Assembly: GCA_019322895.1 (NCBI GenBank)
Contig: JAHWHZ010000001.1
Location: 459,528 to 523,527, forward strand
Direction of reading: 5' to 3'
DNA: 64,000 nucleotides
Source: Candidatus Woesearchaeota archaeon
Lineage (GTDB): Archaea > Nanobdellota > Nanobdellia > Woesearchaeales > ARS49
Shown here: positions 3,539 through 60,131 of the stretch, piece after piece
Layout of the letters: each line of letters opens with the position of its first letter
How positions within the stretch are numbered: position 1 is the stretch's first letter
Position numbers and translations under genes: made by a program
Notes under the pieces: generated by a model
What the model was told of the DNA's origin: nothing
Databases searched by the model: none
Seen by the model: the letters and a program-made list of their open reading frames with translations, nothing else

Positions 3539-4366
3539 ATGGCATCTTTAAAACAAGCACTAAAGAAAAAATTGACAAAGAAAGAGCTGTCTGCAATGCA
3601 CTCCAGCTTTGATGTAGTTGGAAGCATAGCGATTATAGAGATTCCTGATGAACTAAAGAAAAAAGAGAAGATAATTGCCCAGACAATGATTGGTTTGTTC
3701 AAGCCTGTCAAGACAGTTGTCAAGAAAAGCGGCATTCATTATGGAAAATACAGGAGGCAGAAGTTAAAGGTTCTTGCAGGTGAAAAGAAAAAAGTTGCTG
3801 AATACAAGGAATCTGGTGTTCAGATGAAAGTTGACTTGGAAAAATGTTATTTCAGTTCAAGATTAGGCACAGAAAGACTGCGGATCGCAAAGCAAGTCAA
3901 GCCAAAAGAAAAGATTTTAGTGATGTTTTCAGGCGTTGCTCCTTATCCTTTGGTTTTAGCAAGGAATTCAAAGCCAGAAATCATCTGCGGCATTGAACTT
4001 AATCCAGTTGCGCACAAATTTGCTGAGGAGAATGTCAAGCTTAACAAGATGCAGGATAAGATAAAGCTGTACAAGGGCGATGTTGTCAAGGTTGTTCCTA
4101 AGCTAAAGAAGAAGTTTGACAGGATTCTTATGCCAATGCCAAAGACATCAATTACATTTCTGGAAACTGCTTTCAAGGCAGCGAAAAGAGGCGCAATCAT
4201 TCATTTCTATACTTTTGGAAGGGAGAAAGAGTTCAAGGAAATAAGGGACAAGATTAAAGCAGAGTGCAAGAAACACAAAAAGAAGTGCAGGATTCTTAGA
4301 ACAGTAAAGGCAGGCCATTATGCCCCAGGCGTTTATAGGGTGTGTGTGGATTTCAAATTGCAATGA
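3539..4366 (+). CDS. Trm5/Taw2 (Met-10+) family tRNA methyltransferase
   Basis: SAM-binding motif MFSGVAPYPL and an NLPK-like motif LMPMPK. The start is set at ATG 3539, immediately after the upstream stop. The tracker's 3449 start would overlap the previous gene by 89 nt. Confidence 0.6.
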   Translation: MASLKQALKKKLTKKELSAMHSSFDVVGSIAIIEIPDELKKKEKIIAQTMIGLFKPVKTVVKKSGIHYGKYRRQKLKVLAGEKKKVAEYKESGVQMKVDLEKCYFSSRLGTERLRIAKQVKPKEKILVMFSGVAPYPLVLARNSKPEIICGIELNPVAHKFAEENVKLNKMQDKIKLYKGDVVKVVPKLKKKFDRILMPMPKTSITFLETAFKAAKRGAIIHFYTFGREKEFKEIRDKIKAECKKHKKKCRILRTVKAGHYAPGVYRVCVDFKLQ

Positions 4367-4581
4367 CGCGCTTTGTCTGCTTCTTTAATTGCTTGTTTCT
4401 CAGATTTATCAGATACTGTTCAGCAACTGAAGACTCCGCCAGGCGTCATTGATATTTCCGATTACTTTAAATACTCTTATTCTATACAATATTCCAGTGC
4501 AAAGCGCAATGACGAGGTGAATCCCAATCGAGGCCTAGAAATAGGTCAGTGAGATATTTTGGAAGACCGAGCGCGCACAAA

Positions 4582-13127: not shown

Positions 13128-13143
13128 GTTTTTAAATACTTTT

Positions 13144-22955: not shown

Positions 22956-23014
22956 GCTCTTGAGAATTACTGGTTCATTTAAAAAGCTTTTGTATCTTTG
23001 TATGTTTAGCAATA

Positions 23015-23072
23015 TTTCCAATAGCGCCTTGCGAAGTCTTGTGGCATAAATGCGGAATAACATAAATCTGGA
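23015..23072. repeat. intergenic repeat element, copy B (core CCAATAgcGCCTTGCGAAGT...AATGCGGA...CATAAATCTGGAAT)
   Basis: Roughly 60-nt direct homology to 46237-46296. Shares the GCCTTGCGAAGT core with 29459-29476 and with the reverse complement of 52788-52805. Confidence 0.7.
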
Positions 23073-23178
23073 ATAAAAGCGATTAAAAAAGTAGATGTAG
23101 CGCGCTATTGGTTAGCACCTGGTGCAGTCTTTTTAAACATAAGGTTTATAAAGCCTCTGCATTGCTTTATTAACTAAA

Positions 23179-24840: not shown

Positions 24841-24915
24841 CTTTTCTCGAAAAAGTTGAGCTTTCCTATCAACTGCGGAAATCTCAACTACAAGATTGGG
24901 ATTTCGAGGTGTACT

Positions 24916-29390: not shown

Positions 29391-29456
29391 CTTGCCTCTT
29401 TTTATAAGATTGTTTTTTGTCTTTGACTATTTAAAACTTTCTTTGCAAGGTAAGCG

Positions 29457-29556
29457 GCAATGCTGCCTGGCGAAGTTATCCAAATGACAAGCGGTTTCAG
29501 ATAAATCTGATGTATATGTGATTTAAGCAGCGTAACGTAGCGCAGTATTGCTGCAA
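29457..29556. repeat. intergenic repeat element, copy D (full-length, about 100 nt, terminal inverted repeats)
   Basis: The 5' end is GCAATGCTGCCTGGCGAAGT, the centre is GCGGTTTCAGATAAATCTGA (near-palindrome TCAGAT..ATCTGA) and the 3' end is AGCGCAGTATTGCTGC, the inverse of the 5' end. Homologous to the reverse complement of 52713-52806. Confidence 0.7.
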
Positions 29557-38100: not shown

Positions 38101-39851
38101 AGATGGAAAGTTTCTTCCCTGGATTTGATGTGTATCCCAAGAAATCCCATTCAGTTGCAGTCAATGTTTCTGAAGTCAAGGGCTACACATATTATGTTGC
38201 CTGCAAAGACAAGGCAGAACTATTGTCATCATCAAAGCCGATCACATTCACTATTGACTTGACAGCCTTGTTTGCAATAAAGAGCACTACAGAGCCTTAT
38301 TCCAGCACAGAATTGTTTGACCTGCGTATTGAAAGCAATAAAAGGTCATTCTGCTTTTTTGGAGAAAATAAGAACAGCATCTCAAACTGCTTTGGGGCAT
38401 GTGAATTCACTAATGGCCATGCCCAGCCAATCACAAAGCCTGCTGGAACTTACACGTTCTTTGTTAAGTGCAATACCGGCTCTGGAGGGGAATCGAGCAA
38501 TGTGCTTAATATCACTGTGACAGTTGATACCAGCCCTCCTGTTATGGAGTATGTTGATGACAGCTCTACACTGCCTGGGGAGCCAGACATATCATGGTAT
38601 CCTGACAGGCTAAAGGTCAAGTTCAAGGGCAAGGATCCTGAGACAAAAGTCATAAAATATTATTATCTTTTAGAGACTGCATTTGCAAGAGAGCTTGTTG
38701 TGAACTGGACTCCAAGTCTTGAGCTAAATGGAACTTCTATCTTTGTAAAAGCAAACTTGTCTGACGGCCAGAGATATGTTTTTAGGGTAAGGCCTGTGAA
38801 TCTTGTCGGCCTGGTTGGAAATTTCAGTTCAAGTGACGGAGTGACAGTTGATTTGTCAAAAATGCCTCCTGTCTGTGCTAATGGAGAAAAAGATGCAAAT
38901 GAAACTGATATTGACTGCGGAGGCATGTGCGCAGGCTGTGCAGTAGGTAAAAATTGCCTGAAGAATAATGACTGTGAATCAGTGTATTGTGCAGAGAATG
39001 TTTGTGCAGAGCCTTCTTGTACAGATGGCGTAAGAAATGGCCAGGAGACTGATGTTGACTGCGGCGGTCCTGAGTGTCCGAAATGCATGCTTAACAAGAC
39101 ATGTGCAGAAAATACTGATTGTGATTCTGGCAGCTGCTTGTTTGGAAAATGTGCTGTTGATACCTGCAAAAATGGTGTTCTTGACAACACAGAGTCTGAT
39201 ATTGATTGCGGAGGTGCATGCCCATCAAGGTGCGGCAGTGGAATGAACTGCAACCTGCCAGGTGATTGCGCAGAAGAACTTGCCTGCATTGACAATACTT
39301 GTAGTGTTCCTCTTGACTTAGATGAAGATGGTGTTCCTGATTATCTTGATATCTGCCCTAATACTCTTCCAGGTGTTCCTGTTGATGCACAAGGATGCGA
39401 GATTGTTGAAGAGATTCCTGCTGCAGAAAAGCCTTCCTTCTTGTGGACTCTCATAAAGTTCTTGCTGATACTTGCAGTGCTTGGAGGCCTTGGATTTGGA
39501 GGATATTATGCTTACAAGAAAGGATATTTAGATAAAGTGATTGCAAAGTTCAAGAAAGCCCCTCCTGCTGCGCCTGAAATAAAGCCTGCTGCTGTAAAAG
39601 CAAGGCCAAAGCCTAAGCCAGTAGGGCCTACACCTGAAGAAAGGATTGCTGCCTTGCGAAAGTTTGCAAAAAAGAAGGAGCGGCCTGCAATAACAGAAGA
39701 GTTTGTTCCATTAGAGAAATTAAAAACTAAAAAAAGGCCTAAAACAAAGGCTTTTGAGAAGCTAAAGAAGCTTAAATCAAAGAAAAAAGCTTCTAAGAAA
39801 AAATCTAAAGAAGAGGCCATAGCAAAGCTGAGGAAGATAAGGAAAAAATGA
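35181..39851 (+). CDS. giant (1556 aa) type-I-membrane surface protein: Sec signal, Cys-rich modules, Ig-like regions, three or four novel 6-Cys tandem repeats, TSP-type-3-like Ca-binding motif, C-terminal TM and Lys-rich cytoplasmic tail
   Basis: Signal ...AAAVFAQQ. Repeats of the form CxxGxxNxxETD(I/V)DCGGxCxxC...C...DC.S..C....C at about 38866-39310. DLDEDGVPDYLDICPNT matches DxDxDGxxDxxDxCP. TM segment FLWTLIKFLLILAVLGGLGFGGYY. Tail KKAPPAAPEIKP...KKLKSKKKASKKKSKEE. Confidence 0.7.
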   Translation: MCRRLNKKILLISIMMILTALAAAVFAQQFGCCCDPIVRTGSIMNQSACVSPFVFVPIPAFGFTGCPALCNATNITAPPTVPPSCTAPGYKPPVSNLFVLPVKGEKAVQIDFNLPCPVNHVKIYRCQGSGCTNFTLLTTLGSSNSYKDESADLLWDEDYNYKIIANYKVSGDSTPATAEVNIGDLECWYQTTNDLFCIAPYYYDQFKSYLKKYGYKIASADDFKADFDSERDSVFNDFYRKSWRCNDMNQLSKPSPQVSCTEDEICISDGSTAKCVESVSCDLGGDFGLQSDVDDCEGEYGEIKYCFLDKSTTVVNKCYPCNPQMTCYDYHSEDACLRDNCGAGQCAWTDVFPDLGIGVCYDARFDACSLCQARPSSSASNKEGFNEVFDACTEEKARALSTDEIPCFFNKNTQEGQSCDYVDCTAYTQTQCSSPAGGIQLNSDNSIKVGSNDACQINVCQYSVETGCVKNANGASGVGWSDCLDAEDPELCEKDYFPPETIAVLTGEAPGKHDYIDLIINDMTSRTGKTKEMQGEPGYKTYLCIVSANNSCNIASAFPITTTKSRLIINDLNLQDGQDVVGKFSEGNNKVKFYSVDPNKNLEVIKEVIVFACDKCSGPKAINITVTGANEVNGKFYTRVLQPSIKITFDEPAELIASSLDKAGVLQSLASSPTSGLNYQYTFMPNNQLSEGVYRFSVNAKDDNGVSMDNPVVFDLYIDTTPPTVVITPEDGVEFETKDVAVALNFSEPVFFNKTTLDEVVFINEFAKESFPIYLSRELSSENSKYFSGIVTNLKAGLKIVNVDVTDYAGNVLRTKSYFSVFAGPPKIRMVHPSWGISSVFSFNVTVESSTKAKCKYIYDVPAPPPATQFDSLSDFDSSDGIYHVINQVTIPYGDTSTHSLHVYCKAGEFNISRQSFNLFIDSIAPKIVSAYANPDPIVEPVETGAEIYSTRLQVQTDEEGFCKYSADKQDFKEMESFFPGFDVYPKKSHSVAVNVSEVKGYTYYVACKDKAELLSSSKPITFTIDLTALFAIKSTTEPYSSTELFDLRIESNKRSFCFFGENKNSISNCFGACEFTNGHAQPITKPAGTYTFFVKCNTGSGGESSNVLNITVTVDTSPPVMEYVDDSSTLPGEPDISWYPDRLKVKFKGKDPETKVIKYYYLLETAFARELVVNWTPSLELNGTSIFVKANLSDGQRYVFRVRPVNLVGLVGNFSSSDGVTVDLSKMPPVCANGEKDANETDIDCGGMCAGCAVGKNCLKNNDCESVYCAENVCAEPSCTDGVRNGQETDVDCGGPECPKCMLNKTCAENTDCDSGSCLFGKCAVDTCKNGVLDNTESDIDCGGACPSRCGSGMNCNLPGDCAEELACIDNTCSVPLDLDEDGVPDYLDICPNTLPGVPVDAQGCEIVEEIPAAEKPSFLWTLIKFLLILAVLGGLGFGGYYAYKKGYLDKVIAKFKKAPPAAPEIKPAAVKARPKPKPVGPTPEERIAALRKFAKKKERPAITEEFVPLEKLKTKKRPKTKAFEKLKKLKSKKKASKKKSKEEAIAKLRKIRKK
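38866..39310 (+). repeat. tandem array of about 45-aa six-cysteine modules inside the giant surface protein
   Basis: PPVCANGEKDANETDIDCGGMCAGCAVGKNCLKNNDCESVYCAENVC / PSCTDGVRNGQETDVDCGGPECPKCMLNKTCAENTDCDSGSCLFGKC / DTCKNGVLDNTESDIDCGGACPSRCGSGMNCNLPGDCAEELACIDNTC. Confidence 0.6.
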
Positions 39852-40321
39852 AAAAAGCGCAGATGATAGGCCAGATATTTATTTTTGTAGTTGCTGCAAT
39901 AATTTTTATCCTTATCCTTATGTATGGGTATAAGGCAATCTCTAATTTTTTGCAGCGTTCTGAGCAGGTTGCATTGATTGATTTCAAGTCTGATTTAGAA
40001 TCTTCTGTAGAGGTCATCAAGAGGGATTATGGCAGTGTGAGAAAGCTTGAATTAAAGCTGCCAAAAAGATATACAGAGCTCTGCATAATTGATATAAACA
40101 ATTGCGAGCCGCTAAAGAAACAGAGGCCTTTGATGTATTCGACGTGTATTGCAGGCAGTGAGAATGTCATACTTGTTCCTAAGCAGGAAACTCCTATCTT
40201 TCTTCCAGACATAACTGTTTTAGGCGGCTACACTTGTGTTGATGTTGCCCACGGCAATGTTGTACTGGGCCTTAAGGGTCTTGGCAAGTCAACACAGATT
40301 TCAGGGTGGCCTGTTCCATAA
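39848..40321 (+). CDS. pilin-like protein with archaeal class III signal peptide
   Basis: MKKAQMIGQIFIFVVAAIIFILILM... The ATG overlaps the upstream stop (ATGA). Confidence 0.55.
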   Translation: MKKAQMIGQIFIFVVAAIIFILILMYGYKAISNFLQRSEQVALIDFKSDLESSVEVIKRDYGSVRKLELKLPKRYTELCIIDINNCEPLKKQRPLMYSTCIAGSENVILVPKQETPIFLPDITVLGGYTCVDVAHGNVVLGLKGLGKSTQISGWPVP

Positions 40322-41358
40322 TGAAAAAACGCGGTTTTGAGATGCAGTTTCACTGGATTTTTATTCTGATAGCTGGCGCTGTAATCCTTGCTTTCTTTTT
40401 TTCTGTAGTTGCCAAGCAAAAATCGCTTTCTGAGCAAAAGCTTTCCATAACCCTCTCAGAGAATATTGAAGCGGTTTTTTCTGGCGCAATTGAAAGCAAG
40501 GGAACTGCCCAGTTGCTTGCAATGCCTAAAGGGGGACTGTCTTTTTCCTGCTCAGAGGCTTGTGACTGTAATTTTTGGATTGATGACAAGGCAACTTCTT
40601 TCAGCGATAAGATCCTGTTTGCTCCCTCCTTGATTGAAGGCCAGGATGCTGTGGCCTGGTCAAATGAATGGAAGATGCCTTTTAGGATAACTAATTTCCT
40701 GTACATCACAAATCCTAATATCAAGTATTATCTTGTTTATGAGGCTGGCAAGAATGACCGCTTGTTTGATAGGATAAATAAGTCATTTCCACCTGGATTG
40801 AATGTGGCTGTTTTGAGAGACCCGAATGAAGTAGAGGATGTTCCTTATGAAGGTTATCCGGAGACTAAGTTTATATTTTTAGATGTGGTCAATCCTGAGA
40901 TTAACCTGATGGGCATGGACAGTGATTTCAAGAGAGAAGAGGTTTCTGCAATAAATATCCAGCCAAATGCAAATTCAATCACTTTTTACGAGAAAACGCC
41001 TAAAGAGATTGAATTTACATCCAAATCATCTCCTTTTGCAGGCGAGCCGTGGATATTTGCCGCAATATTCGCTGCAGATAAGCAGATGTATGATTGTGGC
41101 TTGCGGGCAGCTTTCCTTAAGCTGAGTCATGTTGCGCAGGTAATTTATGGCAGGGCAAAGATGATACAGGCCAACATAACCCAAATAAAACCTGAATGCA
41201 CATATTTGCTTGACAGTTTTGACGTGCTTATTGAAAGCTCAAAAAGTTTTGTAAATCAATTGGATTTTTCAAGTATTTCAGGCATAGCCCAGGCTGCTGA
41301 TGATATTGAGAGAGAAAACAAGAACATAATATTGTTATCCTGCCCAGAGATTTATTAA
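40321..41358 (+). CDS. pilin-like protein (class III signal peptide, 345 aa)
   Basis: MKKRG|FEMQFHWIFILIAGAVILAFFF. The start is set at ATG 40321, overlapping the upstream TAA by 1 nt. Confidence 0.55.
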   Translation: MKKRGFEMQFHWIFILIAGAVILAFFFSVVAKQKSLSEQKLSITLSENIEAVFSGAIESKGTAQLLAMPKGGLSFSCSEACDCNFWIDDKATSFSDKILFAPSLIEGQDAVAWSNEWKMPFRITNFLYITNPNIKYYLVYEAGKNDRLFDRINKSFPPGLNVAVLRDPNEVEDVPYEGYPETKFIFLDVVNPEINLMGMDSDFKREEVSAINIQPNANSITFYEKTPKEIEFTSKSSPFAGEPWIFAAIFAADKQMYDCGLRAAFLKLSHVAQVIYGRAKMIQANITQIKPECTYLLDSFDVLIESSKSFVNQLDFSSISGIAQAADDIERENKNIILLSCPEIY

Positions 41359-41359
41359 A

Positions 41360-41851
41360 ATGAGGCGAGCACAGATAAAGATGTTTGAAACAATGGCTGT
41401 GTTAGTGATATTCTTCTTTTTATTGGTCGGCGGTGCTGCTTTTTATTTTCAGATACAGAAAAGCAGCATAAAAAGAGATTTGGAGAGGCAGGAGCAGCTG
41501 CGTGCGTTTCAGGTTGTGCAGAAAGCGTTGTTTTTGCCAGAGCTTGACTGTTCTTTTGTGAGCATACAGAAAGATAATTGCTTTGATAAATTAAAAGTGA
41601 TTAATCTCCAAGAGCTTTTGAAGCAGGAAAAGTTTATGATTGATTATTTTAATGTGTTTGGTTTTTCCGAGATAAAGATAATGCAGCTTTATCCTGTTAA
41701 TGATACCTTTTCATATACTCTTTACCAGAACATTCCTGAAAAATATAAGTCCGTGATAAGCACGCAAAGCCCGATACTGCTGTTTGATGCAGTGCAGAAC
41801 AGGTATAATTTTGGTGTTGTTGAGGTTGATGTTTATGCAGAAGAGCAATAA
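41360..41851 (+). CDS. pilin-like protein (class III signal peptide)
   Basis: MRRAQIKMFETMAVLVIFFFLLVGG. Confidence 0.5.
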   Translation: MRRAQIKMFETMAVLVIFFFLLVGGAAFYFQIQKSSIKRDLERQEQLRAFQVVQKALFLPELDCSFVSIQKDNCFDKLKVINLQELLKQEKFMIDYFNVFGFSEIKIMQLYPVNDTFSYTLYQNIPEKYKSVISTQSPILLFDAVQNRYNFGVVEVDVYAEEQ

Positions 41852-42320
41852 GTCCCAGATGGAGATAATGGGTCTGGTAATTATAGTGATACTTGTTGCT
41901 ATTGGAATGCTTTTTGCAGTGCAGTTTTTGCTGAAAAAGCCTGCTGGAAGAGAGACTGCAGCTGTAAAGGAAAGCACGATTGCGGCAAATTTCCTTAACG
42001 CGATGCTTTCCACCACAACTGACTGCTATAACAGGAACATTCGCGAATTATTGCAGGACTGTGCTCTTACTGGCGGCACCACAAGATGCCCTGGCCAGAG
42101 AAACTCTTGTGATTATGCTGCAGACCAGATAAGAATAATGCTTGACAAGACATTGAGCACCTGGAACAAGGATTATTATTTCAGCATAAAAGGCGCTCCT
42201 GGTGTTGAGGCAATCTCTTTTGGCAATTCCTGCCCTGAATGTGAGAGAGAGGCAAAGATACATCCTGTTCCTGTCCGGCCTGGCTTTGAGATACAGCTTA
42301 CGCTTGAGATTTATAGTTAA
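41835..42320 (+). CDS. pilin-like protein (class III signal peptide), Cys-containing
   Basis: The start is set at ATG 41835 (MQKSNKSQMEIMGLVIIVILVAIGMLF). Four Cys in the globular part. Confidence 0.5.
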   Translation: MQKSNKSQMEIMGLVIIVILVAIGMLFAVQFLLKKPAGRETAAVKESTIAANFLNAMLSTTTDCYNRNIRELLQDCALTGGTTRCPGQRNSCDYAADQIRIMLDKTLSTWNKDYYFSIKGAPGVEAISFGNSCPECEREAKIHPVPVRPGFEIQLTLEIYS

Positions 42321-45692: not shown

Positions 45693-45754
45693 TCCCAAAA
45701 AGTTTATATATAACCAATTACAAATACAGTGTAAAGCTAGCAAGAGGTGTACTA

Positions 45755-46081
45755 ATGAGAAAAGCACAAGGATTGCCTATCACTACTATTATCATTGCTG
45801 CATTAGCACTAGTTGTGCTTGTAGTATTGTTTGCCATATTTACAGGCAGACTATCTATTTTTGGAAGAGGCATTTCCGAATGCCCTGGAATTTGTGTTGC
45901 CAAATATTCTGAAAGCGGTGCAACCACTAGTGGCGTGAAAACAGCAGATGCAACAGCTGCATGTCCTAATCCGCAACTGCAAAGGCCGCTGACAGGAACA
46001 TATATTGAAGTAGGACAGCCAGCTAACAGAAAAGCAGAAGATTTGGTTTTCTGCTCTAAGTGCTGCGTCTCCACAGTCTGA
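45755..46081 (+). CDS. small disulfide-rich pilin-like protein (candidate major pilin), paralog 1
   Basis: MRKAQG|LPITTIIIAALALVVLVVL class III signal, with an approximately 80-aa mature part containing 6 Cys. Confidence 0.55.
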   Translation: MRKAQGLPITTIIIAALALVVLVVLFAIFTGRLSIFGRGISECPGICVAKYSESGATTSGVKTADATAACPNPQLQRPLTGTYIEVGQPANRKAEDLVFCSKCCVSTV

Positions 46082-46236
46082 TGGTAGAGCTGAAGATTCC
46101 TTATTTGCAGGGCGTCACTCCTGCAAGACTTTTTACTTTATTGACTTTGATTGTTCTTTTGGTTATACTCATAACTAAATTCTTTGTTTTGAAAGAGCAT
46201 ATGAGCTTGATTCCGCCTTCTGTATTGCCTTAGGTT

Positions 46237-46296
46237 GCCAATACTGCCTTGCGAAGTTCTCAGATGAATATGCGGATTCTGATACCTCGGGAATAC
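46237..46296. repeat. intergenic repeat element, copy 46(+)
   Basis: GCCAATACTGCCTTGCGAAGTTCTCAGATGAATATGCGGATTCTGATACC. Collinear with copy B at 23015-23072. Confidence 0.7.
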
Positions 46297-46325
46297 TTCT
46301 TAATTATTTGTATGTGAAGTATTCC
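46290..46325. other. perfect 10-bp stem-loop (GGAATACTTC ... GAAGTATTCC) with 16-nt AT-rich loop
   Basis: Read directly: GGAATACTTCttaattatttgtatgtGAAGTATTCC. Confidence 0.7.
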
Positions 46326-46390
46326 GGATGGTGCTCAAGAACCCTTGGTTCTTGACAAATCTGGTTTGCAGGAGGCATCTAGTGCATAAC

Positions 46391-46505
46391 ACAGCGCAGC
46401 ATTGGCTTATGCATAGCACGCTTCGTTCTGCTTCTATTATCGCTTATGTCCAGATTTATGATAAGTGGAATATTGCTTAGATAACTTCGCTAGGTGCTAT
46501 GCATG
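46391..46505. repeat. intergenic repeat element, copy 46(-), inverted relative to the 46(+) copy
   Basis: AGCGCAGCATTGG...CGCTTCGTTCT...CCAGATTTATGATAAG...AACTTCGCTAGGTGC is collinear with 52713-52806. Together with 46237-46296 it forms about 25-bp imperfect terminal inverted repeats (GCGAAGTTCTCAGATGAATATGCGG vs the reverse complement GCGAAGTTATCTAAGCAATATTCC). Confidence 0.65.
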
Positions 46506-46553
46506 TATGTTCTGCCATAAAGTTTATATATGAGAATTAGATTTTATATCAGC

Positions 46554-46895
46554 ATGAAGAAAAGAGGCCAAGGATTGCCAATAACCACCATAATCATAGC
46601 TGCTCTTGCACTGATAGTTCTCGTGGTTCTTATTTTCATATTTTCAGGCAAAATAAGGGTTTTTAGCGGAGAGATGGTTAGCTGCACAAGCAAGGGGGGT
46701 TTTTGTACTTCAAAAGCTTGCGTATTTGGCTATCAATCAGAAATCAAGAATACAGATTGTCCTTCTGGCCAGAAATGTTGCCTTACAATTCTTGGCGCTC
46801 CTGCAGATTCTCCTTGCGCTAATGATGATGACTGTGCAAAAGGTTTAGAGTGTAAAAATAACAAGTGCACCGCAAAGACTGCAGCTAAAAAATAG
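46554..46895 (+). CDS. small disulfide-rich pilin-like protein (candidate major pilin), paralog 2
   Basis: MKKRGQG|LPITTIIIAALALIVLVVL has an N-terminus nearly identical to 45755. The mature part has 10 Cys (knottin-like spacing). The start is set at ATG 46554. Confidence 0.55.
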   Translation: MKKRGQGLPITTIIIAALALIVLVVLIFIFSGKIRVFSGEMVSCTSKGGFCTSKACVFGYQSEIKNTDCPSGQKCCLTILGAPADSPCANDDDCAKGLECKNNKCTAKTAAKK

Positions 46896-46952
46896 ACAAT
46901 ATTTCTTTTTTCACCAAAAACCTTTTATATATAATTCTTATTTTCTGAAGTA

Positions 46953-47060
46953 ATGAAAAAAAGAGGCGTGATTGAGCCAGAGATATTGATAGCAATAGTT
47001 TTGTCAGTCATTTTTCTCATAATCGCAATCTTGGTCTTGACAAGGAAGGGCATCATATGA
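46953..47060 (+). CDS. micro-ORF (35 aa) consisting only of a class III signal peptide plus TM helix
   Basis: MKKRGVIEPEILIAIVLSVIFLIIAILVLTRKGII. Its stop overlaps the next start (ATGA). Missed by the more than 60-aa ORF track. Confidence 0.3.
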   Translation: MKKRGVIEPEILIAIVLSVIFLIIAILVLTRKGII

Positions 47061-48025: not shown

Positions 48026-48179
48026 GATGCAAAACAAGAAAGCAATGGAAATACCTGGATGGATTTATGTTGTAGGCTTGATAATCGGCTTGCTGGTCAT
48101 ATTGTTGATAATCTGGATTTCTGCAAAATCCGGCCAAAAGGCAACTGGTTTGCTGGATACCATCAAAGGATTACTATGA
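48012..48179 (+). CDS. micro-ORF (55 aa) with class III signal-peptide-like N-terminus
   Basis: MSLIKMQNKKA|MEIPGWIYVVGLIIGLLVILLIIW. Translationally coupled at both ends (14-nt overlap upstream, ATGA downstream). Confidence 0.3.
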   Translation: MSLIKMQNKKAMEIPGWIYVVGLIIGLLVILLIIWISAKSGQKATGLLDTIKGLL

Positions 48180-51100
48180 AAAAAAGAGGTGTAAGTGGGG
48201 CTTTTATGTGGGTTTCTATAGTTATAGGGCTCATTGTTATCTTGTCCATTGGAACAGTCCTTTACCAGGGAAGAGATTATCTCTCAGAAAAAATATTTGG
48301 AAAAAAATACATCTCTGCTGAAGAAAAAGAATTTGTTCCTTACGAAGTGGAGTTAGAAGGAGAAGTAAAGACAGCAGATGATTCTATGAAAGCTCTTGTT
48401 TGCGCTTTCAACAGTTTGGCTATTGAGAAAAAAGGCTGGCTCATTGAAGGAGTGTGTCCAGAAGGGTTTTATTCAAAAGAAGTAGAAGAGAAAAAGAAAA
48501 AAGAGGCAGAAGAGAAGAAAGCAGCAGAAGAAAAGAAAAAAGCAGAGGAAAAGAAAACAGAACCCACGCCTGCTCCAACAGGAGCAATGGTTTCAATAAC
48601 AGGCGCCGCAACTAAAGAGGATTGCGATGGTGCCTTGTATGGCCAGACTTGTGTTGAGTGCCGTGAAAGCGAGTTTGGCATGAAAACAATTACTTTGCCA
48701 GACAGCGAATATGATGCTACAAAAATGTTAGCTAAAGCTGCAGTTCAGTGCTGGAATGATTTTAAAGGTCCAAAAGGCAATAAAGGCGAAAAAAATATTC
48801 TTTGCAATAAGGTTGTCATACCAGGGACTGCACCTGGCTGGGTAATAACAAAAGAAGAGTTTAGAGAACGTCTAGAAAAATTTGAAGGAGAAGTAGGTTC
48901 TGACTTGGCAGGTCTTGGTACTGGAACACAGAATGTTGATTGGAAATTTGGCGAGGCAATTGTCTTAAATATTAAACAAGAATTTTATATCTGCGCTAAC
49001 GATGCTTACGATGCCAATCCGTTTGACGCAGATGAGATTTTCTTCACGCGAAATCTAAATGATTGTGAAGTTGAAACAAGAGGGCTTGCCGAAAAAGAAT
49101 TTACCTGCGAAATTAAAACTTTTGAGTTGCCGCAGGAGATTGGCAGCGACATCAGTCTTTTTAATTGGGCAGAAGAGTTCATTAACAAGTATAATGACCC
49201 GGAATATCTTGCGTATTACGAGTCTTTTCCAAGAGGAGAGGAAGCAGCATGGCATTTAGAAGAAGGCGATTTTATTGTTGATGTTATACTGTTCGGTGCA
49301 GTCATGAATACGTTGCCTGTGCTTGGAAAAGGTGTGCGCCAAGCTGGCGGATTATTTAGAAGAATATTCACTAAAAAAATTCTTGTGGAAGTGCCTGAAG
49401 ATATTGTTAAGAAAGCTTCTAAAAAAACCATAACAACAGTATTAGGGAAAACAGGCAAAGAGATTGGAACAGAACTCGGCGAACAAACTATAAAAGAACT
49501 GACAGATATGTTTGGCAAAGGCATGGAGCGCCAGCTAAAATCACAGATACTCTATGATAATATACTTAAAGAAGTGGGGGAAGATGCTGCAGAAACAGCC
49601 CGCCAGGCATTTCTCTCAAAATATTCTATCTATAAAGGAATGGGAAAGACAGACGACCAGATTGCAACTCTTCTGAAAAAAGAGATCCCAGAAGCAATTG
49701 GAAAGACACCTGATGAAGTCAGCGGACTAATCAAGAATGTGGATGACGTGATTAAGAAATCCCTGGCAGAGCTTAGCGAATCCGCTAGGAATAAGCAGAC
49801 TGCCAGGCAGTTTTTTACAAAATATCTCTTGAAAGAAGGCGGTGAAAGCCTCAATAAAGAAGCTATGGAAAATATATTAGCTACAGCCTTGACTAAAGAG
49901 ACATATGATAAGCTTGGCCCAGAAGCAGCAGAACAAATAATGCAGCGTTCCCTTTCATATACTGATGAAATTATTGATGTCACTAAAGGCACCGATGAAT
50001 TGTTAAAAACCCAGTCATTGATAGGCCGAACTTATGGTGCAGTTGTTGGCCAAGTTAATAAAGAATTCAACCTTTTTGCAAATATATTGAGCCAGCCAAA
50101 TAAAGATACCTTATCAAGATTTTTATTAGGAGTAACTCCCAAAGAAATTGGCGAAGCTGTTGCGCAAAAAGGAGGGGCATTAGGTGCTATCGGAGCAGCT
50201 GCAGCGCGTTATAATCCTATTCATATTTCAATAGGAACAGGAAAAATTGTTCCAATTCCTAGACCTTTGTTGGTACGTTCACTTGTTGGAACTGCATATA
50301 AGACTACGCGTACAGGCATTCGTTTTACCTCTGATGCTGCAGGGGCTGCATGGCATTCCAGGGCTGCGCGTTACACACTGGCATATCTCCTTGCAACGCA
50401 GATAGCTGAATCAGATGCAAAGAATGATAAATTAGGTTATAATGAGGAAAATACGCTTATCCTGCAAAAGCCTTATGATTTTGATGCTAAGGCAAAATAT
50501 TTTTTGTCAGATGAAACTAATAAGTATTACTTGAACTTGCACAAGTATCAGTATGGTGATGCGCGGTTCTTCCTTGCAAGTCCCTGCAAAGCAGACTTGA
50601 CAATACCTAAAACAGATTGTGATTGTAATATCTATTCTGGAGATTACATCTTGAAATCCAATAATCAGCCATTTGACCCTGCTTCTGTAAAATTCAAGAG
50701 CGATGACGCGATTCATACTGTGTATAAATATGATGAACTTTCAAAAGATGGTAAAAGAGCTGCAATGGATTATTGTTTAGTAAAAGACCAGGAGTTTGGT
50801 GTTTTATGCAACATATTTGTTATGAAGGATCCTGAAGCTTATGAAAAGTTTACAAAATATGTTTATAAGAATGTTTATAGCCCTGCAATTGATTTCATGC
50901 AAAAATATAAAGTAGATGAAGAAAAGATTGCTGATATCATTGAAAGAAAAGAAGGGGATGTATCGCTTACAATAGGCCACATAATTTCAGATGCTGGCGA
51001 AGAATTAAGGCCGCATTATGAATTTGGTGCTTTCTGCTTTTTTGCAGAAGGCGGTATTGGTCCTTGCTCAGTCAATATTCCTGGTGCGCTCACTGAGATG

Positions 51101-51700
51101 CTTGTAGAAACAAGAGCTCCTGAGCTTACATTAAGAAAAACTCCTTTGTCTTATGAAGAATTCAAAAAAGAGTTTGATAAGGTTATTGCAAGTGGTTATT
51201 ATGAGAATATTGCATTTTCAGTTTATCATAAACTGGGAGCGATTAGGAAAGGCGAAGGTATGTATTTCATGGATATGTATGACCCAAATGGATTCTTAGA
51301 TATTGCTACAAGACACACTTACTTAAATTACAATGTTGTTGAAGACAGCAAGATTGACAAAAAGAAGATTGCAAAGCTTTGTAATACTAGATTAGATGAG
51401 CGGGAGCCACACATAAAAAGTATGCTCGCAACAAAAGTATCTATTGCTTGTTTTAATGCCCAGCCAAGCATAGAAGGATATCCTGATTATAATAATGGCC
51501 ATAATTATTGCTTCAGCAGCGAGCATGCTGGAATTGAGACTGCCAAAGATATTGCCACAGGCATTTCTATTGCAATTGACTTTGGTGCAGGAATCATAAG
51601 TGGCGGCTTGGCAGAAGCGCCTGTAGCAGCTCTTACTGGCCTTGGTTCTGCATGGTTTGCTCATGAAATGGATAAAAAGAAATTCTGGCCAAATCATTAA
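48176..51700 (+). CDS. giant (1175 aa) pilin-like surface protein with Lys/Glu-rich repeat
   Basis: The start is set at ATG 48176 (MKKRG|VSGAFMWVSIVIGLIVILSIG). EKKKKEAEEKKAAEEKKKAEEKK is encoded by an approximately 85-nt pure polypurine tract. The remainder has no recognisable domain. Confidence 0.55.
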   Translation: MKKRGVSGAFMWVSIVIGLIVILSIGTVLYQGRDYLSEKIFGKKYISAEEKEFVPYEVELEGEVKTADDSMKALVCAFNSLAIEKKGWLIEGVCPEGFYSKEVEEKKKKEAEEKKAAEEKKKAEEKKTEPTPAPTGAMVSITGAATKEDCDGALYGQTCVECRESEFGMKTITLPDSEYDATKMLAKAAVQCWNDFKGPKGNKGEKNILCNKVVIPGTAPGWVITKEEFRERLEKFEGEVGSDLAGLGTGTQNVDWKFGEAIVLNIKQEFYICANDAYDANPFDADEIFFTRNLNDCEVETRGLAEKEFTCEIKTFELPQEIGSDISLFNWAEEFINKYNDPEYLAYYESFPRGEEAAWHLEEGDFIVDVILFGAVMNTLPVLGKGVRQAGGLFRRIFTKKILVEVPEDIVKKASKKTITTVLGKTGKEIGTELGEQTIKELTDMFGKGMERQLKSQILYDNILKEVGEDAAETARQAFLSKYSIYKGMGKTDDQIATLLKKEIPEAIGKTPDEVSGLIKNVDDVIKKSLAELSESARNKQTARQFFTKYLLKEGGESLNKEAMENILATALTKETYDKLGPEAAEQIMQRSLSYTDEIIDVTKGTDELLKTQSLIGRTYGAVVGQVNKEFNLFANILSQPNKDTLSRFLLGVTPKEIGEAVAQKGGALGAIGAAAARYNPIHISIGTGKIVPIPRPLLVRSLVGTAYKTTRTGIRFTSDAAGAAWHSRAARYTLAYLLATQIAESDAKNDKLGYNEENTLILQKPYDFDAKAKYFLSDETNKYYLNLHKYQYGDARFFLASPCKADLTIPKTDCDCNIYSGDYILKSNNQPFDPASVKFKSDDAIHTVYKYDELSKDGKRAAMDYCLVKDQEFGVLCNIFVMKDPEAYEKFTKYVYKNVYSPAIDFMQKYKVDEEKIADIIERKEGDVSLTIGHIISDAGEELRPHYEFGAFCFFAEGGIGPCSVNIPGALTEMLVETRAPELTLRKTPLSYEEFKKEFDKVIASGYYENIAFSVYHKLGAIRKGEGMYFMDMYDPNGFLDIATRHTYLNYNVVEDSKIDKKKIAKLCNTRLDEREPHIKSMLATKVSIACFNAQPSIEGYPDYNNGHNYCFSSEHAGIETAKDIATGISIAIDFGAGIISGGLAEAPVAALTGLGSAWFAHEMDKKKFWPNH

Positions 51701-52308
51701 CTTAATGACATCATCGTTCTTCCAGGAGCATGTTCTTTAGTTACATCTCCTACAAGTATTCCAAATGTTCTTATTCTTGCATCATCTGAAAATCTTTCTG
51801 CATCATCTATTATCTGGTCATGATACATTCCTGAATCTATCTCTTTGAATTCAAAAGGTCGCATCTTTGTGTACATCACTCCCCATTGAATGTTTGTGAA
51901 ATTCATTTGCTCTTTCCAGTCCTCATCAAGAAATATGTCAACAATCCACTGGCCGTCCTCTCTTTTCTCTGTCATGAAGCCTTCCATAATGCCGTCATCT
52001 GGGGTCATTTCAGTTGTTATTCTTATTTTGACTTCACCATCTTCAACAAATTGGTTTGTGAATTGCTGGCCTTTGTAATATCCTTCTAATTCAAATACAG
52101 TGCTTATCTCTGTATCTCTGTATTGCAGTCCCATGGAATCCATGAACATTCTTCTGCCTGTCGCTTTATCTATGTCTATTGTGCTGTCCTCCACCCAGGT
52201 CTCTGGCTCTTCAGGAGAATATGGCTTTGGCCTGGTTGATATATAGATTGATACTAAAAGAAGTATGAGTGTGATTATTATTCCTATTATCACCACTTTT
52301 TTTTCCAT
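51697..52308 (-). CDS. membrane-anchored hypothetical protein
   Basis: 203 aa with an N-terminal TM (VVIIGIIITLILLLVSIYI). It is the only minus-strand gene inside the pilin-like cluster and is convergent with the giant gene. Confidence 0.45.
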   Translation of the reverse strand: MEKKVVIIGIIITLILLLVSIYISTRPKPYSPEEPETWVEDSTIDIDKATGRRMFMDSMGLQYRDTEISTVFELEGYYKGQQFTNQFVEDGEVKIRITTEMTPDDGIMEGFMTEKREDGQWIVDIFLDEDWKEQMNFTNIQWGVMYTKMRPFEFKEIDSGMYHDQIIDDAERFSDDARIRTFGILVGDVTKEHAPGRTMMSLS

Positions 52309-52381: not shown

Positions 52382-52711
52382 ATGAAAAAAAGAGCTGTTC
52401 AATTGTCTGTGCAGACAATGATTATTGTAGCTCTTGGCTTGATTGTTTTGCTTGTCTTGATTTTTCTTATCAGAGGCCAGATTCAGAAAGGTGCTGGACA
52501 GTATTTTGATATTGGCACGAAAATCGGCAAAGAGGCAGAGCTTGAGAAATGCCAGGGCGGATTCTTTACTACAAAACAATGTGCCACAAACTGCATAAAG
52601 GATCCTAAGCTGGATGAGAATTATTATTGGGAGGATATTGGCCCAAAAGACTGCAAGGCTCCTACGCCGGTATGCTGCCAAAGAGGAGATAAAAAAGCTT
52701 CTATAAAATGA
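52382..52711 (+). CDS. small Cys-containing pilin-like protein
   Basis: MKKRA|VQLSVQTMIIVALGLIVLLVLIFLI, with 6 Cys in the mature part. Confidence 0.5.
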   Translation: MKKRAVQLSVQTMIIVALGLIVLLVLIFLIRGQIQKGAGQYFDIGTKIGKEAELEKCQGGFFTTKQCATNCIKDPKLDENYYWEDIGPKDCKAPTPVCCQRGDKKASIK

Positions 52712-52712
52712 T

Positions 52713-52806
52713 GCAATGCTGCGCTTCGTTCTTATGCTGAAACCGCCTGTTACCTAGATTTATCAGAAATCACTCTTAACATTAAAGACTTCGCAAGGCA
52801 GCATTT
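52713..52806. repeat. intergenic repeat element, copy 52 (minus orientation relative to copy D)
   Basis: GCAATGCTGCGCTTCGTTCT...CTAGATTTATCAGAAATC...GACTTCGCAAGGCAGCATTTGC. Its reverse complement begins AAATGCTGCCTTGCGAAGT. It starts 1 nt after the upstream stop and ends 6 nt before a TATA-like TTTAAAAAT. Confidence 0.7.
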
Positions 52807-52858
52807 GCACGTTTAAAAATAAGAAACTTTTAAATAACAATTATGCTAATTCTTTATT

Positions 52859-57678: not shown

Positions 57679-57818
57679 TCCACTGGTCACTGGACATCTT
57701 CTCGTAGCGTATTTAAACAATTTTAGCCACCCTTATTCTATCGCAAACCTCATCTCCTGGTTTAATCTTTCTTTTTCCAGGGGATTGAAACAAGATGCGA
57801 AAGCAAGAGGTGAAAAAA

Positions 57819-58085: not shown

Positions 58086-58243
58086 TTTCCGAAAAAAGAA
58101 CCGGATTTTTCGGTTATCCCTGTTTTTTAGGCAGGTATTTCGAAATAATTCCAGATTCTGTATTGCTTTTTCCGGAAAAATCTCAGCAAGGCATAATTAA
58201 AATGCCAGCCACCTGTTTTACAAAAATAAAAAAGGTGGTTTGC

Positions 58244-60103: not shown

Positions 60104-60131
60104 GCAGTTAATTTTTTTTATCTTTTTTAAA

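What the first reader, a model, noticed from the sequence alone, without database searches (positions are those of the whole stretch)
45755..46895. Two tandem paralogous small disulfide-rich pilin-like genes flanking a repeat-rich spacer: candidate major pilins
The 108- and 113-aa proteins share an almost identical class III N-terminus (GQGLPITTIIIAALAL(V/I)VLVVL). Their mature parts are about 80 aa with 6 and 10 Cys (knottin-like CTSKGGFCTSKACVFGY...DCPSGQKCC...PCANDDDCAKGLECKNNKC). This is the size and duplication expected of major filament subunits. A third relative lies at 52382-52711. The 450-nt spacer between the first two carries the inverted repeat-element pair and a perfect hairpin. 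That spacer could drive differential expression or recombination between the paralogs (antigenic or adhesive variation).
Basis: partly seen in the sequence, partly recalled or inferred. Interest (0 to 1): 0.7.

Follow-up and report, generated by a model that had tools for sequence, protein, structure and literature searches.

The report
Woesearchaeal cysteine-rich pilin genes plus MITEs
Two neighbouring genes in an uncultivated Woesearchaeota genome belong to a large, unannotated family of small cysteine-rich pilin-like proteins that probably build a surface fibre, while the "repeat-rich spacer" between them is a missed 50-residue gene plus two copies of a small mobile element, not a switch for antigenic variation.

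Summary
The genes are real. P1 (45755-46081, 6 Cys) and P2 (46554-46895, 10 Cys) share the N-terminus [KR][GA]|QGLPITTIIIAALAL. P3 (52382-52711) is the only other family member in the window. The organism is a Candidatus Woesearchaeota MAG.

The family has no Pfam or NCBIfam model. A profile search found 4,253 cluster representatives, nearly all of those listed 82-110 aa. Tandem arrays of 2-3 members occupy the same slot of a conserved island in six divergent genomes: a giant Ig-like protein, four pilin-like proteins, the small pilins, a peptidoglycan hydrolase, then RPA. P1 and P2 are old paralogues (synonymous difference 0.66 in the shared helix), each with its own consensus BRE/TATA. I read them as candidate filament-forming pilins; this is inferred, because no assembly ATPase, platform protein or prepilin peptidase lies in the window.

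The P2 head has beta-defensin cysteine spacing, with weak but concordant defensin matches.

The "spacer" holds a conserved, translationally coupled 50-aa gene (46081-46233) and two inverted copies of a ~100-nt MITE. That element has terminal inverted repeats and ~9-bp target duplications, six copies in the window and over 100 in metagenomes. It is absent from both sites in the sister genome. Three samples show no polymorphism. The variation hypothesis is not supported.

The parts
45695..45711 (+). BRE/TATA promoter of P1 (CCAAAAAGTTTATATAT). A GAGGTG Shine-Dalgarno lies 5 nt before the ATG.
   Evidence: Direct repeat family D1. One of only two perfect AAAGTTTATATA sites in the window. Sequence read.
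45755..46081 (+). P1: 108-aa class-III-signal pilin-like protein with 6 Cys (CPGxC...C...CxxCC head). NCBI tag KY346_03020.
   Evidence: A 36-sequence alignment has invariant Q5 and C43/47/70/100/103/104. AF2 pLDDT 81 with helix 9-29 plus strands. No fold match in PDB.
46081..46233 (+). Its ATG overlaps the P1 stop codon (TGATG).
   Evidence: 96% aa identity and dN/dS 0.18 against L001. A homologous 51-aa ORF, also overlapping the stop, is present in L007.
46234..46406 (+). MITE copy A1, a long variant. It contains the hairpins at 46287-46328 and 46335-46355.
   Evidence: CM E=0.037 for the 5' part. Terminal stem GCCAATACTGC/GCAGCATTGGC. Absent from L001. Long (~150-170 nt) variants also occur in metagenome loci.
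46406..46507 (-). MITE copy A2, full length, inverted relative to A1.
   Evidence: CM R1 96.9 bits, E 2e-19. Perfect 11-bp terminal inverted repeat ATGCATAGCAC/GTGCTATGCAT (I12). Absent from L001.
46515..46531 (+). BRE/TATA promoter of P2. The TATA lies about 25 nt before ATG 46554, so the mRNA is probably leaderless.
   Evidence: The same core promoter is present in L001, which has no MITEs, and in L007.
46554..46895 (+). P2: 113-aa class-III-signal pilin-like protein with 10 Cys. It has a beta-defensin-spaced 6-Cys head plus a 4-Cys tail module. NCBI tag KY346_03035.
   Evidence: AF2 pLDDT 77.5 with helix 10-30, a 3-stranded sheet and a hairpin. Defensin-type matches.
46914..47060 (+). Third BRE/TATA copy (46914-46930) and a 35-aa class-III-like ORF (46953-47060). 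This ORF starts the next operon: 35 aa, 322 aa, 55 aa, 1174 aa.
   Evidence: The 35-aa product is 100% identical in L001.
52382..52711 (+). P3: 109-aa third family member with 6 Cys.
   Evidence: Family HMM E=1.1e-11. 99% identical to the L001 orthologue, dN/dS 0.04. Orthologue present in L007.
52709..52811 (-). MITE copy C. It was inserted at the last codons of P3 and supplies the present stop codon.
   Evidence: CM 93.1 bits. Empty site in L001.
4356..4456 (-). MITE copy outside the locus. It overlaps the stop codon of the Trm5-like gene.
   Evidence: CM 72.9 bits.
23014..23115 (+). MITE copy B, between rpl34e and the cysteine desulfurase gene.
   Evidence: CM 103.5 bits.
29453..29555 (+). 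MITE copy in a divergent intergenic region.
   Evidence: CM 76.4 bits.

Best explanation
P1 and P2, with P3 as a more distant member, belong to a large Woesearchaeota family of small secreted proteins. Each has a class III (prepilin-type) signal, [KR][G/A/S] cleaved before Q. This is followed by a nearly invariant hydrophobic helix and a small disulfide-stabilised head.

Inferred mechanism: a prepilin peptidase removes the short leader. The conserved helices pack into the core of a type-IV-pilus-like fibre and the variable Cys-rich heads coat its surface. P1 and P2 are alternative or co-assembling main subunits. The upstream giant Ig-like protein plus four larger pilin-like proteins would act as adhesin and minor pilins.

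The two genes are ancient paralogues with independent consensus promoters. P1 has a 5' leader with a Shine-Dalgarno and is translationally coupled to a 50-aa membrane protein. P2 is leaderless.

The repeats between them are two copies of a ~100-nt MITE. They landed just upstream of the P2 BRE/TATA after the split from the closest sequenced relative. They are passengers, not a variation mechanism.

Shown here: gene reality, family membership, signal motif, predicted helix-plus-head architecture, synteny, age of the paralogues, and the MITE nature and recent insertion of the repeats. Inferred: cleavage, filament assembly and major-subunit status.
For: Family and signal:
- All named homologues come from Candidatus Woesearchaeota MAGs.
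- Q at +1 and the H-domain are invariant or nearly so in the alignments.
- The site matches the KGQ/RAQ sites of the Methanococcus Epd pilins and the G/A/S(-1), charged(-2) rule (PMC4371748).
- A profile search found 4,253 representatives at E<=1e-3 and 1,824 at E<=1e-10. Nearly all of the 150 listed are 82-110 aa and match over most of the profile.

Structure: AF2 gives an N-terminal helix followed by a small beta-rich head for both proteins.

Context:
- Tandem arrays of 2-3 members sit at the same position in six divergent islands.
- They follow a giant Ig/TSP3-like protein and four class-III-like proteins.
- P1 and P2 carry the only perfect AAAGTTTATATA sites in 64 kb.

Age and variation:
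- P1 against P2 in the shared helix: pS 0.66, 73% nucleotide identity.
- hhalign detects homology over the first 58 residues only.
- dN/dS is 0.28-0.30 for P1 and P2 against 0.04-0.13 for the regulators, as expected for exposed subunits.

Spacer:
- The sister genome L001 has 185 nt where the window has 472 nt, and 36 nt where it has 147 nt. Both are clean empty sites.
- The covariance model finds 6 copies in the window and 104 in 80 metagenome loci.
- The terminal 10-bp stem is 94.7% paired.
- Flanking 8-9-bp duplications score 2.51 against a control of 1.14 +/- 0.165.
- 80 of 89 copies lie outside long ORFs.
Against: - No PilB-like ATPase, PilC-like platform protein or A24 prepilin peptidase is among the window ORFs I scanned, nor is one annotated in the syntenic loci. 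The rest of the 705-kb contig could not be read.
- No curated pilin model matches: no archaeal pilin family appears among the Pfam or NCBIfam matches.
- G at +2 is unusual for archaeal prepilin sites as I recall the FlaFind rule; I did not run that rule here.
- Nothing shows which class-III protein is the major subunit. The tiny 35-aa and 50/55-aa ORFs and P3 (99% conserved) are alternatives.
- There are no expression or proteomic data.
- Disulfide-rich extracellular proteins are unexpected if this lineage lives anaerobically, as Woesearchaeota are usually assumed to. That assumption is my own background knowledge and was not tested here.
Confidence: 0.6

Rival explanations
1. P1 and P2 are pilin-like but are not the main filament subunit. 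They would be minor or tip pilins, or membrane-anchored surface proteins that keep their helix as an anchor. The fibre would be built by another class-III protein of the island, such as P3 or one of the tiny 35-55-aa ORFs.
For: The window has about 18 ORFs with class-III-like N-termini. P3 is far more constrained (99% aa, dN/dS 0.04) and the 35-aa ORF is 100% conserved. No assembly genes are linked. Membrane-associated pilins can act in adhesion without pili in Haloferax (PMC4371748).
Against: The P1/P2-type H-domain is the most conserved feature across thousands of clusters, as expected for helix-helix packing in a fibre core. P1 and P2 have the only perfect consensus promoters. Haloferax PilA1-6 is a precedent for several paralogues with one shared H-domain that can each act as major pilin. 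Major pilins usually evolve faster than minor ones, which fits dN/dS of about 0.3.
Confidence: 0.25
2. The P2-type proteins, and perhaps P3, are defensin-like effectors. A hydrophobic N-domain joined to a beta-defensin-fold head, as in big defensins, would be released or displayed to bind or damage the envelope of a host or competitor, rather than serving as structural pilins.
For: Cys spacing is C-x6-C-x4-C-x12-C-x5-CC. The orthologue P0008 passes the Pfam gathering score for Defensin_beta_2, 22.9 against 22.2 bits. The P2-type profile's PDB hits are tick carboxypeptidase inhibitor, big defensin, hBD3, hBD104, platypus DLPs and crotamine. The Foldseek top list includes hBD1 and hBD2 with target TM 0.63-0.71. 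The island also carries a peptidoglycan hydrolase.
Against: All these matches are statistically weak: Foldseek E>=0.28, PDB profile E>=0.02, and P2 itself has no Pfam defensin hit. Small cystine-rich folds converge easily. P2 is not markedly cationic. The N-terminus is shared with P1-type and CCC-type paralogues that have quite different heads, which points to a common assembly role for the helix.
Confidence: 0.1
3. The repeat-bearing spacer would drive differential expression, inversion or recombination between P1 and P2 to give antigenic or adhesive variation. Alternatively, the repeats would be structured regulatory RNAs specific to this locus.
For: The two copies are inverted and about 0 nt apart. 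They could in principle pair or recombine, and they fold stably (z=-4.45 for 46230-46410). The terminal stems covary strongly. Copies often abut stop codons, 35 of 89, so a 3'-UTR effect on read-through from P1 cannot be excluded.
Against: The element is dispersed genome-wide in either orientation, including sites upstream of both divergent promoters. It has target-site duplications. It is missing from both orthologous sites in L001, while the genes and the P2 promoter are intact there. The P1 and P2 coding sequences are too diverged at synonymous sites for homologous exchange. There are no SNPs or rearrangements in three samples. There is no Rfam match.
Confidence: 0.04

Closest known systems
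Haloferax volcanii adhesion pilins PilA1-PilA6 (Esquivel et al. 2013, as reviewed in PMC4371748)
   Same: Several small paralogous pilins share an almost identical hydrophobic H-domain but have different C-terminal parts. They are not linked to pilB/pilC. Each can act as major pilin. They carry a class III signal with G/A/S at -1.
   Different: There is no sequence match to the Pilin_N model. The heads here are cysteine-rich and lack N-glycosylation sequons. The genes are arranged in a fixed tandem array inside a conserved pilin island. The lineage is Woesearchaeota (DPANN).
Methanococcus maripaludis Epd pilins (EpdA-E; major pilin EpdE is processed by EppA)
   Same: The processing motif has Q at +1, KGQ or RAQ in Epd against KRG|Q and RKA|Q here. 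The pilins are very small. The major pilin is encoded away from the assembly genes (bioRxiv 10.64898/2026.04.22.720090).
   Different: No curated pilin or class III signal model matches. There is no QxSxE-type continuation. Cysteine-rich heads are absent from the Epd pilins.
Bacterial type IV pilus minor-pilin/PilY1 operon followed by the major pilin (established knowledge of Pseudomonas fimU-pilVWXY1E)
   Same: The gene logic is similar: one giant adhesin-like protein, four mid-sized pilin-like proteins, and then the small, strongly expressed pilin(s).
   Different: This is an analogy of gene order only. No sequence homology was shown and the domain of life differs.
Beta-defensin / big-defensin / tick carboxypeptidase inhibitor fold (trans-defensins)
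   Same: The six-cysteine spacing ending in CC is shared. AF2 predicts a three-stranded sheet. Weak matches agree across Pfam, PDB sequence profile and Foldseek searches. Big defensins also join a hydrophobic N-domain to the defensin domain.
   Different: Those proteins are animal peptides, while here the domain is fused to a pilin helix in an archaeon. The statistics are marginal, the disulfide connectivity is unknown, and convergence is the default reading.
MITEs such as Neisseria Correia elements or the archaeal Sulfolobus/haloarchaeal MITEs
   Same: The element is about 100 nt and non-coding. It has terminal inverted repeats and target-site duplications. It is present in many intergenic copies, often at gene ends, and shows presence/absence between close relatives.
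   Different: This is a new sequence family with ~9-bp duplications, found in Woesearchaeota-type contigs. No autonomous transposase partner was identified. The terminal repeats vary between subfamilies while staying complementary.

Membership tests
Archaeal type IV pilin / class III signal peptide protein | Short charged N-terminus with K/R at -2 and G/A/S at -1, placed before rather than after the hydrophobic domain | tested here: met
   P1 has MRKA|QGLP and P2 has MKKRG|QGLP. Homologues have K/R then G, A or S before an invariant Q. The criterion is taken from PMC4371748.
Archaeal type IV pilin / class III signal peptide protein | About 20-residue hydrophobic H-domain forming an N-terminal alpha-helix, followed by a globular domain | tested here: met
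   AF2 gives helix 9-29 (P1) and 10-30 (P2), followed by beta-rich heads, at pLDDT 81 and 77.5. These are predictions only.
Archaeal type IV pilin / class III signal peptide protein | Match to a curated pilin or class III signal model (e.g. Pfam Pilin_N, Class_IIIsignal; NCBIfam archaeal flagellin N-terminal domain) | tested here: not met
   No such hit at E<=0.1-1 for P1, P2, P3 or for 31 family members.
Archaeal type IV pilin / class III signal peptide protein | Prepilin peptidase (A24), PilB-type ATPase and PilC-type platform protein encoded in the same genome | not testable with these tools
   None is found among the window ORFs scanned, and none is annotated in the 20-kb syntenic loci. 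The remaining ~640 kb of the contig could not be read. Linkage is not required, as Haloferax pilA and the Methanococcus major pilin show.
Archaeal type IV pilin / class III signal peptide protein | Signal cleavage and incorporation into a filament | not testable with these tools
   This needs mass spectrometry or cryo-EM of fibres.
Beta-defensin (trans-defensin) fold | Six cysteines spaced C-x(4-8)-C-x(3-5)-C-x(9-13)-C-x(4-7)-CC (consensus recalled from the literature) | tested here: met
   P2 has C44-x6-C51-x4-C56-x12-C69-x5-C75C76. These six are invariant in 10 P2-type sequences.
Beta-defensin (trans-defensin) fold | Significant match to a curated defensin model or to solved defensin structures | tested here: inconclusive
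   P2 itself has no hit. The orthologue P0008 just passes the PF13841 gathering score, 22.9 against 22.2 bits. PDB profile hits have E of 0.02-4. Foldseek E>=0.28, although hBD1/2 have target TM 0.63-0.71.
Beta-defensin (trans-defensin) fold | Disulfide connectivity C1-C5, C2-C4, C3-C6 | not testable with these tools
This needs NMR, a crystal structure or disulfide mapping.
MITE (miniature inverted-repeat transposable element) | Terminal inverted repeats | tested here: met
   The 10-bp terminal helix is 94.7% complementary over 87 distinct copies.
MITE (miniature inverted-repeat transposable element) | Target-site duplication flanking the copies | tested here: met
   Perfect 8-9-bp duplications are seen, e.g. 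CAAATGTAG (L176) and TAAGAGAG (L149). The mean score is 2.51 against 1.14 +/- 0.165 for shuffled partners. The duplications at the window copies are degenerate: GTATTGCCt and GTtcTGCCA against GTATTGCCA at the empty site.
MITE (miniature inverted-repeat transposable element) | Small, non-coding, multi-copy and dispersed, with empty sites in relatives | tested here: met
   There are 6 copies in 64 kb and 104 copies in 80 metagenome loci, up to 5 per 14 kb. 80 of 89 lie outside ORFs of 100 aa or more. Empty sites are present in L001.
MITE (miniature inverted-repeat transposable element) | Related autonomous element with a transposase sharing the terminal repeats | not tested
   Partial HMM hits gave no candidate IS ends. 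No systematic search was made.
Pilin antigenic/phase variation system (e.g. the Neisseria pilE/pilS type) | Recombining homologous cassettes, or an invertible segment, giving population-level sequence variants | tested here: not met
   pS is 0.66 between P1 and P2 in the only shared segment. There were 0 mismatches over P1-spacer-P2 in the contigs from two other samples, L002 and L003. Each paralogue has its own orthologues in other genomes.

The most novel reading that the evidence does not exclude
The P2-type head, and the related P3-type head, is a genuine beta-defensin (trans-defensin) fold with the canonical disulfide pattern. That fold is so far known only from animals. Here it would be polymerised along an archaeal type IV pilus, with the hydrophobic-helix-plus-defensin-domain architecture of big defensins. 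An episymbiotic Woesearchaeon would use it to bind or breach the envelope of its host, together with the peptidoglycan hydrolase encoded in the same island.
Probability: 0.12. Interest if true: 0.8.

Novelty: new variant of a known kind. Interest (0 to 1): 0.5.

Why it matters
Woesearchaeota are abundant, uncultivated, small-genome archaea thought to live attached to other cells. How they attach is unknown.

This locus gives concrete candidates for their fibre subunits. The family is large (over 4,000 clusters), has no annotation, and has one invariant assembly helix with interchangeable cysteine-rich heads. It sits in a conserved island that also carries a giant adhesin-like protein and a swappable peptidoglycan hydrolase.

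That makes several things directly testable in enrichments and metaproteomes. One is the question of which protein builds the Woesearchaeal pilus and what it binds. Another is the defensin-like head.

The work also removes a tempting but wrong reading, a variation switch. The repeats are instead a new MITE family that can serve as a strain-level marker.

Tried and rejected
1. Rfam scans gave nothing usable. The whole window at gathering thresholds had no hit, and the spacer at E<=10 gave only a meaningless HgcE hit at E=7. ARAGORN found no tRNA.

2. The genome-contig scan with a 16-mer from the repeat returned only single chance hits in unrelated bacteria (L009-L088). As a result the machinery genes could not be sought in GTDB genomes.

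3. Reading the repeats as a structured RNA gene or 3'-UTR element. Stem covariation is strong. I rejected this as the main reading for five reasons: both orientations occur; some copies lie upstream of both divergent promoters; target-site duplications are present; orthologous sites are empty; and the interior helices are poorly supported (53-79% paired).

4. A1 as a nested insertion. It is more likely a long subfamily, since copies of 150-170 nt occur elsewhere. This is unresolved.

6. NCBIfam gave no pilin model hit, only a weak Myxo_Cys_RPT match to the P2 tail.

7. The listing of cluster members on ten family members returned no organism names. The taxonomic range therefore rests on the named NCBI hits only.

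8. A search for IS ends among partial element hits found nothing.

9. The sigma-70 promoter and intrinsic-terminator scan is not informative for an archaeon.
Full report
OBSERVATION

The window is archaeal: RadA, RadB, RPA, aRF1-type release factor and tRNA-intron endonuclease are present and GC is 39%.

ORFs 45755-46081 (P1, 108 aa) and 46554-46895 (P2, 113 aa) are present. Their N-termini are almost identical, MRKAQGLPITTIIIAALALVVLVVL against MKKRGQGLPITTIIIAALALIVLVVL. They have 6 and 10 cysteines.

The longer reading of P2 from ATG 46530 starts inside the TATA box and is not conserved. ATG 46554 is conserved in two other genomes.

A family HMM built without P3 finds exactly three members among 344 window ORFs: P1 (E 9e-31), P2 (1e-27) and P3 at 52382-52711 (1.1e-11). 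The next ORF scores E=0.13.

IDENTITY OF THE PROTEINS

P2 and P1 are identical to hypothetical proteins KY346_03035 and KY346_03020 of a Candidatus Woesearchaeota MAG (705-kb contig). Every homologue that carries an organism name is also from Woesearchaeota.

No Pfam or NCBIfam pilin model matches.

A profile of 31 diverse members was searched against 1.84 billion cluster representatives. It finds 4,253 proteins at E<=1e-3 and 1,824 at E<=1e-10. Nearly all of the 150 listed are 82-110 aa, and most match over nearly the whole profile.

All members have this layout:
- K/R, then G, A or S;
- an invariant Q;
- G-[LI]-[PS]-I-[TN]-x-III-AA..L.VLVV;
- a Gly;
- a short linker;
- a 45-75-residue head with invariant cysteines, ending in CC or CCC.

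This is the layout of a class III (prepilin) signal: G/A/S at -1, a charged residue at -2, and the cleavage site before the H-domain. The KGQ/RAQ form is that of the Methanococcus Epd pilins (PMC4371748).

AF2 predicts helix 9-29 (P1, pLDDT 81) and 10-30 (P2, pLDDT 77.5), each followed by a small beta-rich head.

Profile-profile comparison shows that the P1-type and P2-type groups are homologous over the first 58 residues only (99.6% probability). The heads differ.

CONTEXT

About 18 ORFs in the window have class-III-like N-termini. Most lie in one block at 33.9-56.2 kb.

The order of the block is:
- a giant Ig-like protein (1,556 aa here, 1,300-2,660 aa elsewhere);
- four pilin-like proteins of about 157, 345, 163 and 161 aa;
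- in this clade only, a kinase-like protein, an AbrB/MazE-type regulator and an Lrp/AsnC regulator;
- 2-3 tandem small Cys-rich family members;
- further class-III-like proteins;
- a peptidoglycan hydrolase, then in the more distant islands a ~570-630-aa protein (fn3-like where annotated);
- RPA.

This order recurs in six divergent Woesearchaeota contigs from sediment, groundwater and the ocean. The tandem array is therefore ancestral and not a recent duplication. The P2-type gene is its last member in all six.

No assembly ATPase, platform protein or A24 peptidase is among the window ORFs scanned or annotated in these loci. Haloferax pilA1-6 and the Methanococcus major pilin are likewise unlinked from their machinery.

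ARE THEY MAJOR SUBUNITS?

Evidence in favour, all indirect:
- The H-domain is the most conserved part of the family. This is as in Haloferax PilA1-6, where six paralogues share one H-domain and each can form pili.
- They are the smallest head-bearing pilin-like proteins of the island.
- P1 and P2 carry the only two perfect AAAGTTTATATA (BRE/TATA) sites in 64 kb. Six other sites have one mismatch, and the chance expectation is 0.64.
- Their position after an adhesin plus four pilin-like genes mirrors bacterial minor-pilin operons. This is an analogy only.
- Against the closest relative (L001), P1 and P2 have 84% and 82% aa identity and dN/dS of 0.30 and 0.28. The regulators score 0.04-0.12 and P3 scores 0.04. 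The pattern is exposed but constrained.

Evidence against: nothing here measures abundance or assembly, and P3 or the 35-55-aa helix-only ORFs could be the core subunit.

I put about 0.8 on 'type-IV-pilin-like' and about 0.5 on 'main filament subunits'.

THE P2 HEAD

P2 has the spacing C-x6-C-x4-C-x12-C-x5-CC, the beta-defensin pattern as I recall it. This is followed by a 4-Cys module found only in the closest five orthologues.

Three independent searches point the same way, each weakly:
- Foldseek against PDB lists the Dkk4 N-domain, human beta-defensins 1 and 2 (target TM 0.63-0.71, rmsd 1.8-3.1 A) and knottins. The best E-value is 0.28.
- Of 13 PDB sequences hit by the P2-type profile, 9 have the beta-defensin fold: tick carboxypeptidase inhibitor, big defensin, hBD3, hBD104, platypus DLPs and crotamine. 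E-values are 0.02-4.
- The 85-aa orthologue P0008 just passes the Pfam gathering score for Defensin_beta_2, 22.9 against 22.2 bits over the whole model.

A pairwise BLAST of P2 against the tick inhibitor domain gives E=0.002 for that single comparison.

I treat this as a real resemblance of pattern and predicted fold, most likely convergent.

The P1 head has no detectable structural relative.

THE 'SPACER'

It has three parts.

(a) 46081-46233 is a 50-aa ORF, MVELKIPYLQGVTPARLFTLLTLIVLLVILITKFFVLKEHMSLIPPSVLP. Its ATG overlaps the P1 stop codon. It is 96% identical in L001 (dN/dS 0.18). L007 has a 51-aa homologue with the same overlap. Small coupled ORFs also follow the last pilin in L006 and L215.

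(b) 46234-46406 (+) and 46406-46507 (-) are two copies of one ~100-nt element.

(c) 46515-46531 is the P2 BRE/TATA. The insertion sits directly upstream of it and leaves it intact.

A covariance model built from four copies finds six copies in the window. The others are at 4356-4456, 23014-23115, 29453-29555 and 52709-52811. It finds two copies in L007 and none in L001 or L005.

A pattern scan of JGI metagenomes returned 84 loci, and the model found 104 copies in the 80 of them that were searched. Some contigs have up to five copies in 14 kb.

The terminal 10-bp arms are 94.7% complementary, and 9 of 10 pairs show changes on both sides. Flanks carry 8-9-bp direct duplications well above a shuffled control. 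80 of 89 copies avoid long ORFs, and 35 abut a stop codon.

In L001 the P1-P2 gap is 185 nt and the P3-to-next-gene gap is 36 nt. Both are clean empty sites. In the window the insertions supply new stop codons for the 50-aa ORF and for P3.

These are MITEs.

THE VARIATION HYPOTHESIS

- P1 and P2 differ at 66% of synonymous sites within the 27 codons that encode the shared helix (73% nucleotide identity). The identical peptide is therefore kept by selection, not by recombination.
- Each paralogue has its own orthologues in other genomes.
- Contigs of the same population from two other samples (L002, L003) have no mismatch across P1, spacer, P2 and the downstream 2.5 kb. All 11-15 differences lie upstream.
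- The real divergence hot spot against L001 is 48176-52308: the 1174-aa and 203-aa genes have 63-65% aa identity and dS of about 1.07.

A residual possibility is that the MITE hairpins affect read-through from the P1 operon. That needs transcript mapping.

VERDICT

The finding is a new, large, unannotated family within a known kind, the archaeal type IV pilin-like proteins. It has an unusual disulfide-rich and partly defensin-like head. It lies next to ordinary MITE insertions.

Noticed in passing
window 53377-54480 (+); L212 16110-17198, L214 16047-17189, L215 12597-13655: A 367-aa protein has a class-III-like N-terminus and an Amidase_3 domain. In the same syntenic slot other Woesearchaeota carry Amidase_2 or Peptidase_M15_3. 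A peptidoglycan-hydrolase module has thus been replaced non-homologously inside a conserved pilin island. This hints at bacterial cell walls as a target.
   Followed up: partly
window 48176-51700 (+) and 51697-52308 (-): These two genes (1174 aa and 203 aa) are the divergence hot spot against the sister genome L001. They have 63-65% aa identity and dS of about 1.07, against 82-100% and dS 0.1-0.4 for all neighbours. This suggests allele replacement or a host-specificity determinant.
   Followed up: partly
window 35181-42320 (+): A giant Ig-like protein (1556 aa, Big_13/Big_3_3) is followed by four class-III-like proteins of 157, 345, 163 and 161 aa. The block is conserved in order in six Woesearchaeota contigs and resembles an adhesin plus minor-pilin operon.
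   Followed up: partly
window 46953-47060 (+) and 48027-48179 (+): These are tiny helix-only class-III-like ORFs: 35 aa (MKKRGVIEPEILIAIVLSVIFLIIAILVLTRKGII, 100% identical in L001) and 50/55 aa. They are translationally coupled to the larger genes that follow. They could be Flp-like minimal pilins or assembly factors.
   Followed up: no
window 4356-4456, 23014-23115, 29453-29555, 46234-46507, 52709-52811; loci L128-L211: The ~100-nt MITE is a widespread high-copy family in several metagenome series (Ga01804xx, JGI10211, Ga0209536, Hainich groundwater). It has subfamilies whose terminal repeats differ but stay complementary. Copies sometimes occur in head-to-tail tandem (e.g. L207, L211, L131). 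No transposase partner was found.
   Followed up: partly
window 24856-25785 (+): This ORF has a many-times repeated WNKG motif (repeat families D5, D10, D14, D15) and a C-terminal DUF559/REase-like endonuclease domain.
   Followed up: no
window 57817-57877 and 58248-58308: A 61-nt direct repeat (84% identity) lies at the starts of two adjacent small ORFs (57795-58085 and 58082-58474). They are probably tandem paralogues with no Pfam match.
   Followed up: no
window 59842-60107: A long run of degenerate acidic Glu/Ala/Pro-coding repeats lies just upstream of, or fused to, the LigT-like 2'-5' RNA ligase ORF (59955-60674).
   Followed up: no
window 10142-16725 (-): Six consecutive ORFs (306-502 aa) have no Pfam match. 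Several have lipoprotein-like or class-III-like N-termini (e.g. 15559-16725, MKKRADGAPVGATAASLIGIIALLLVF). This may be a second surface-protein cluster.
   Followed up: no
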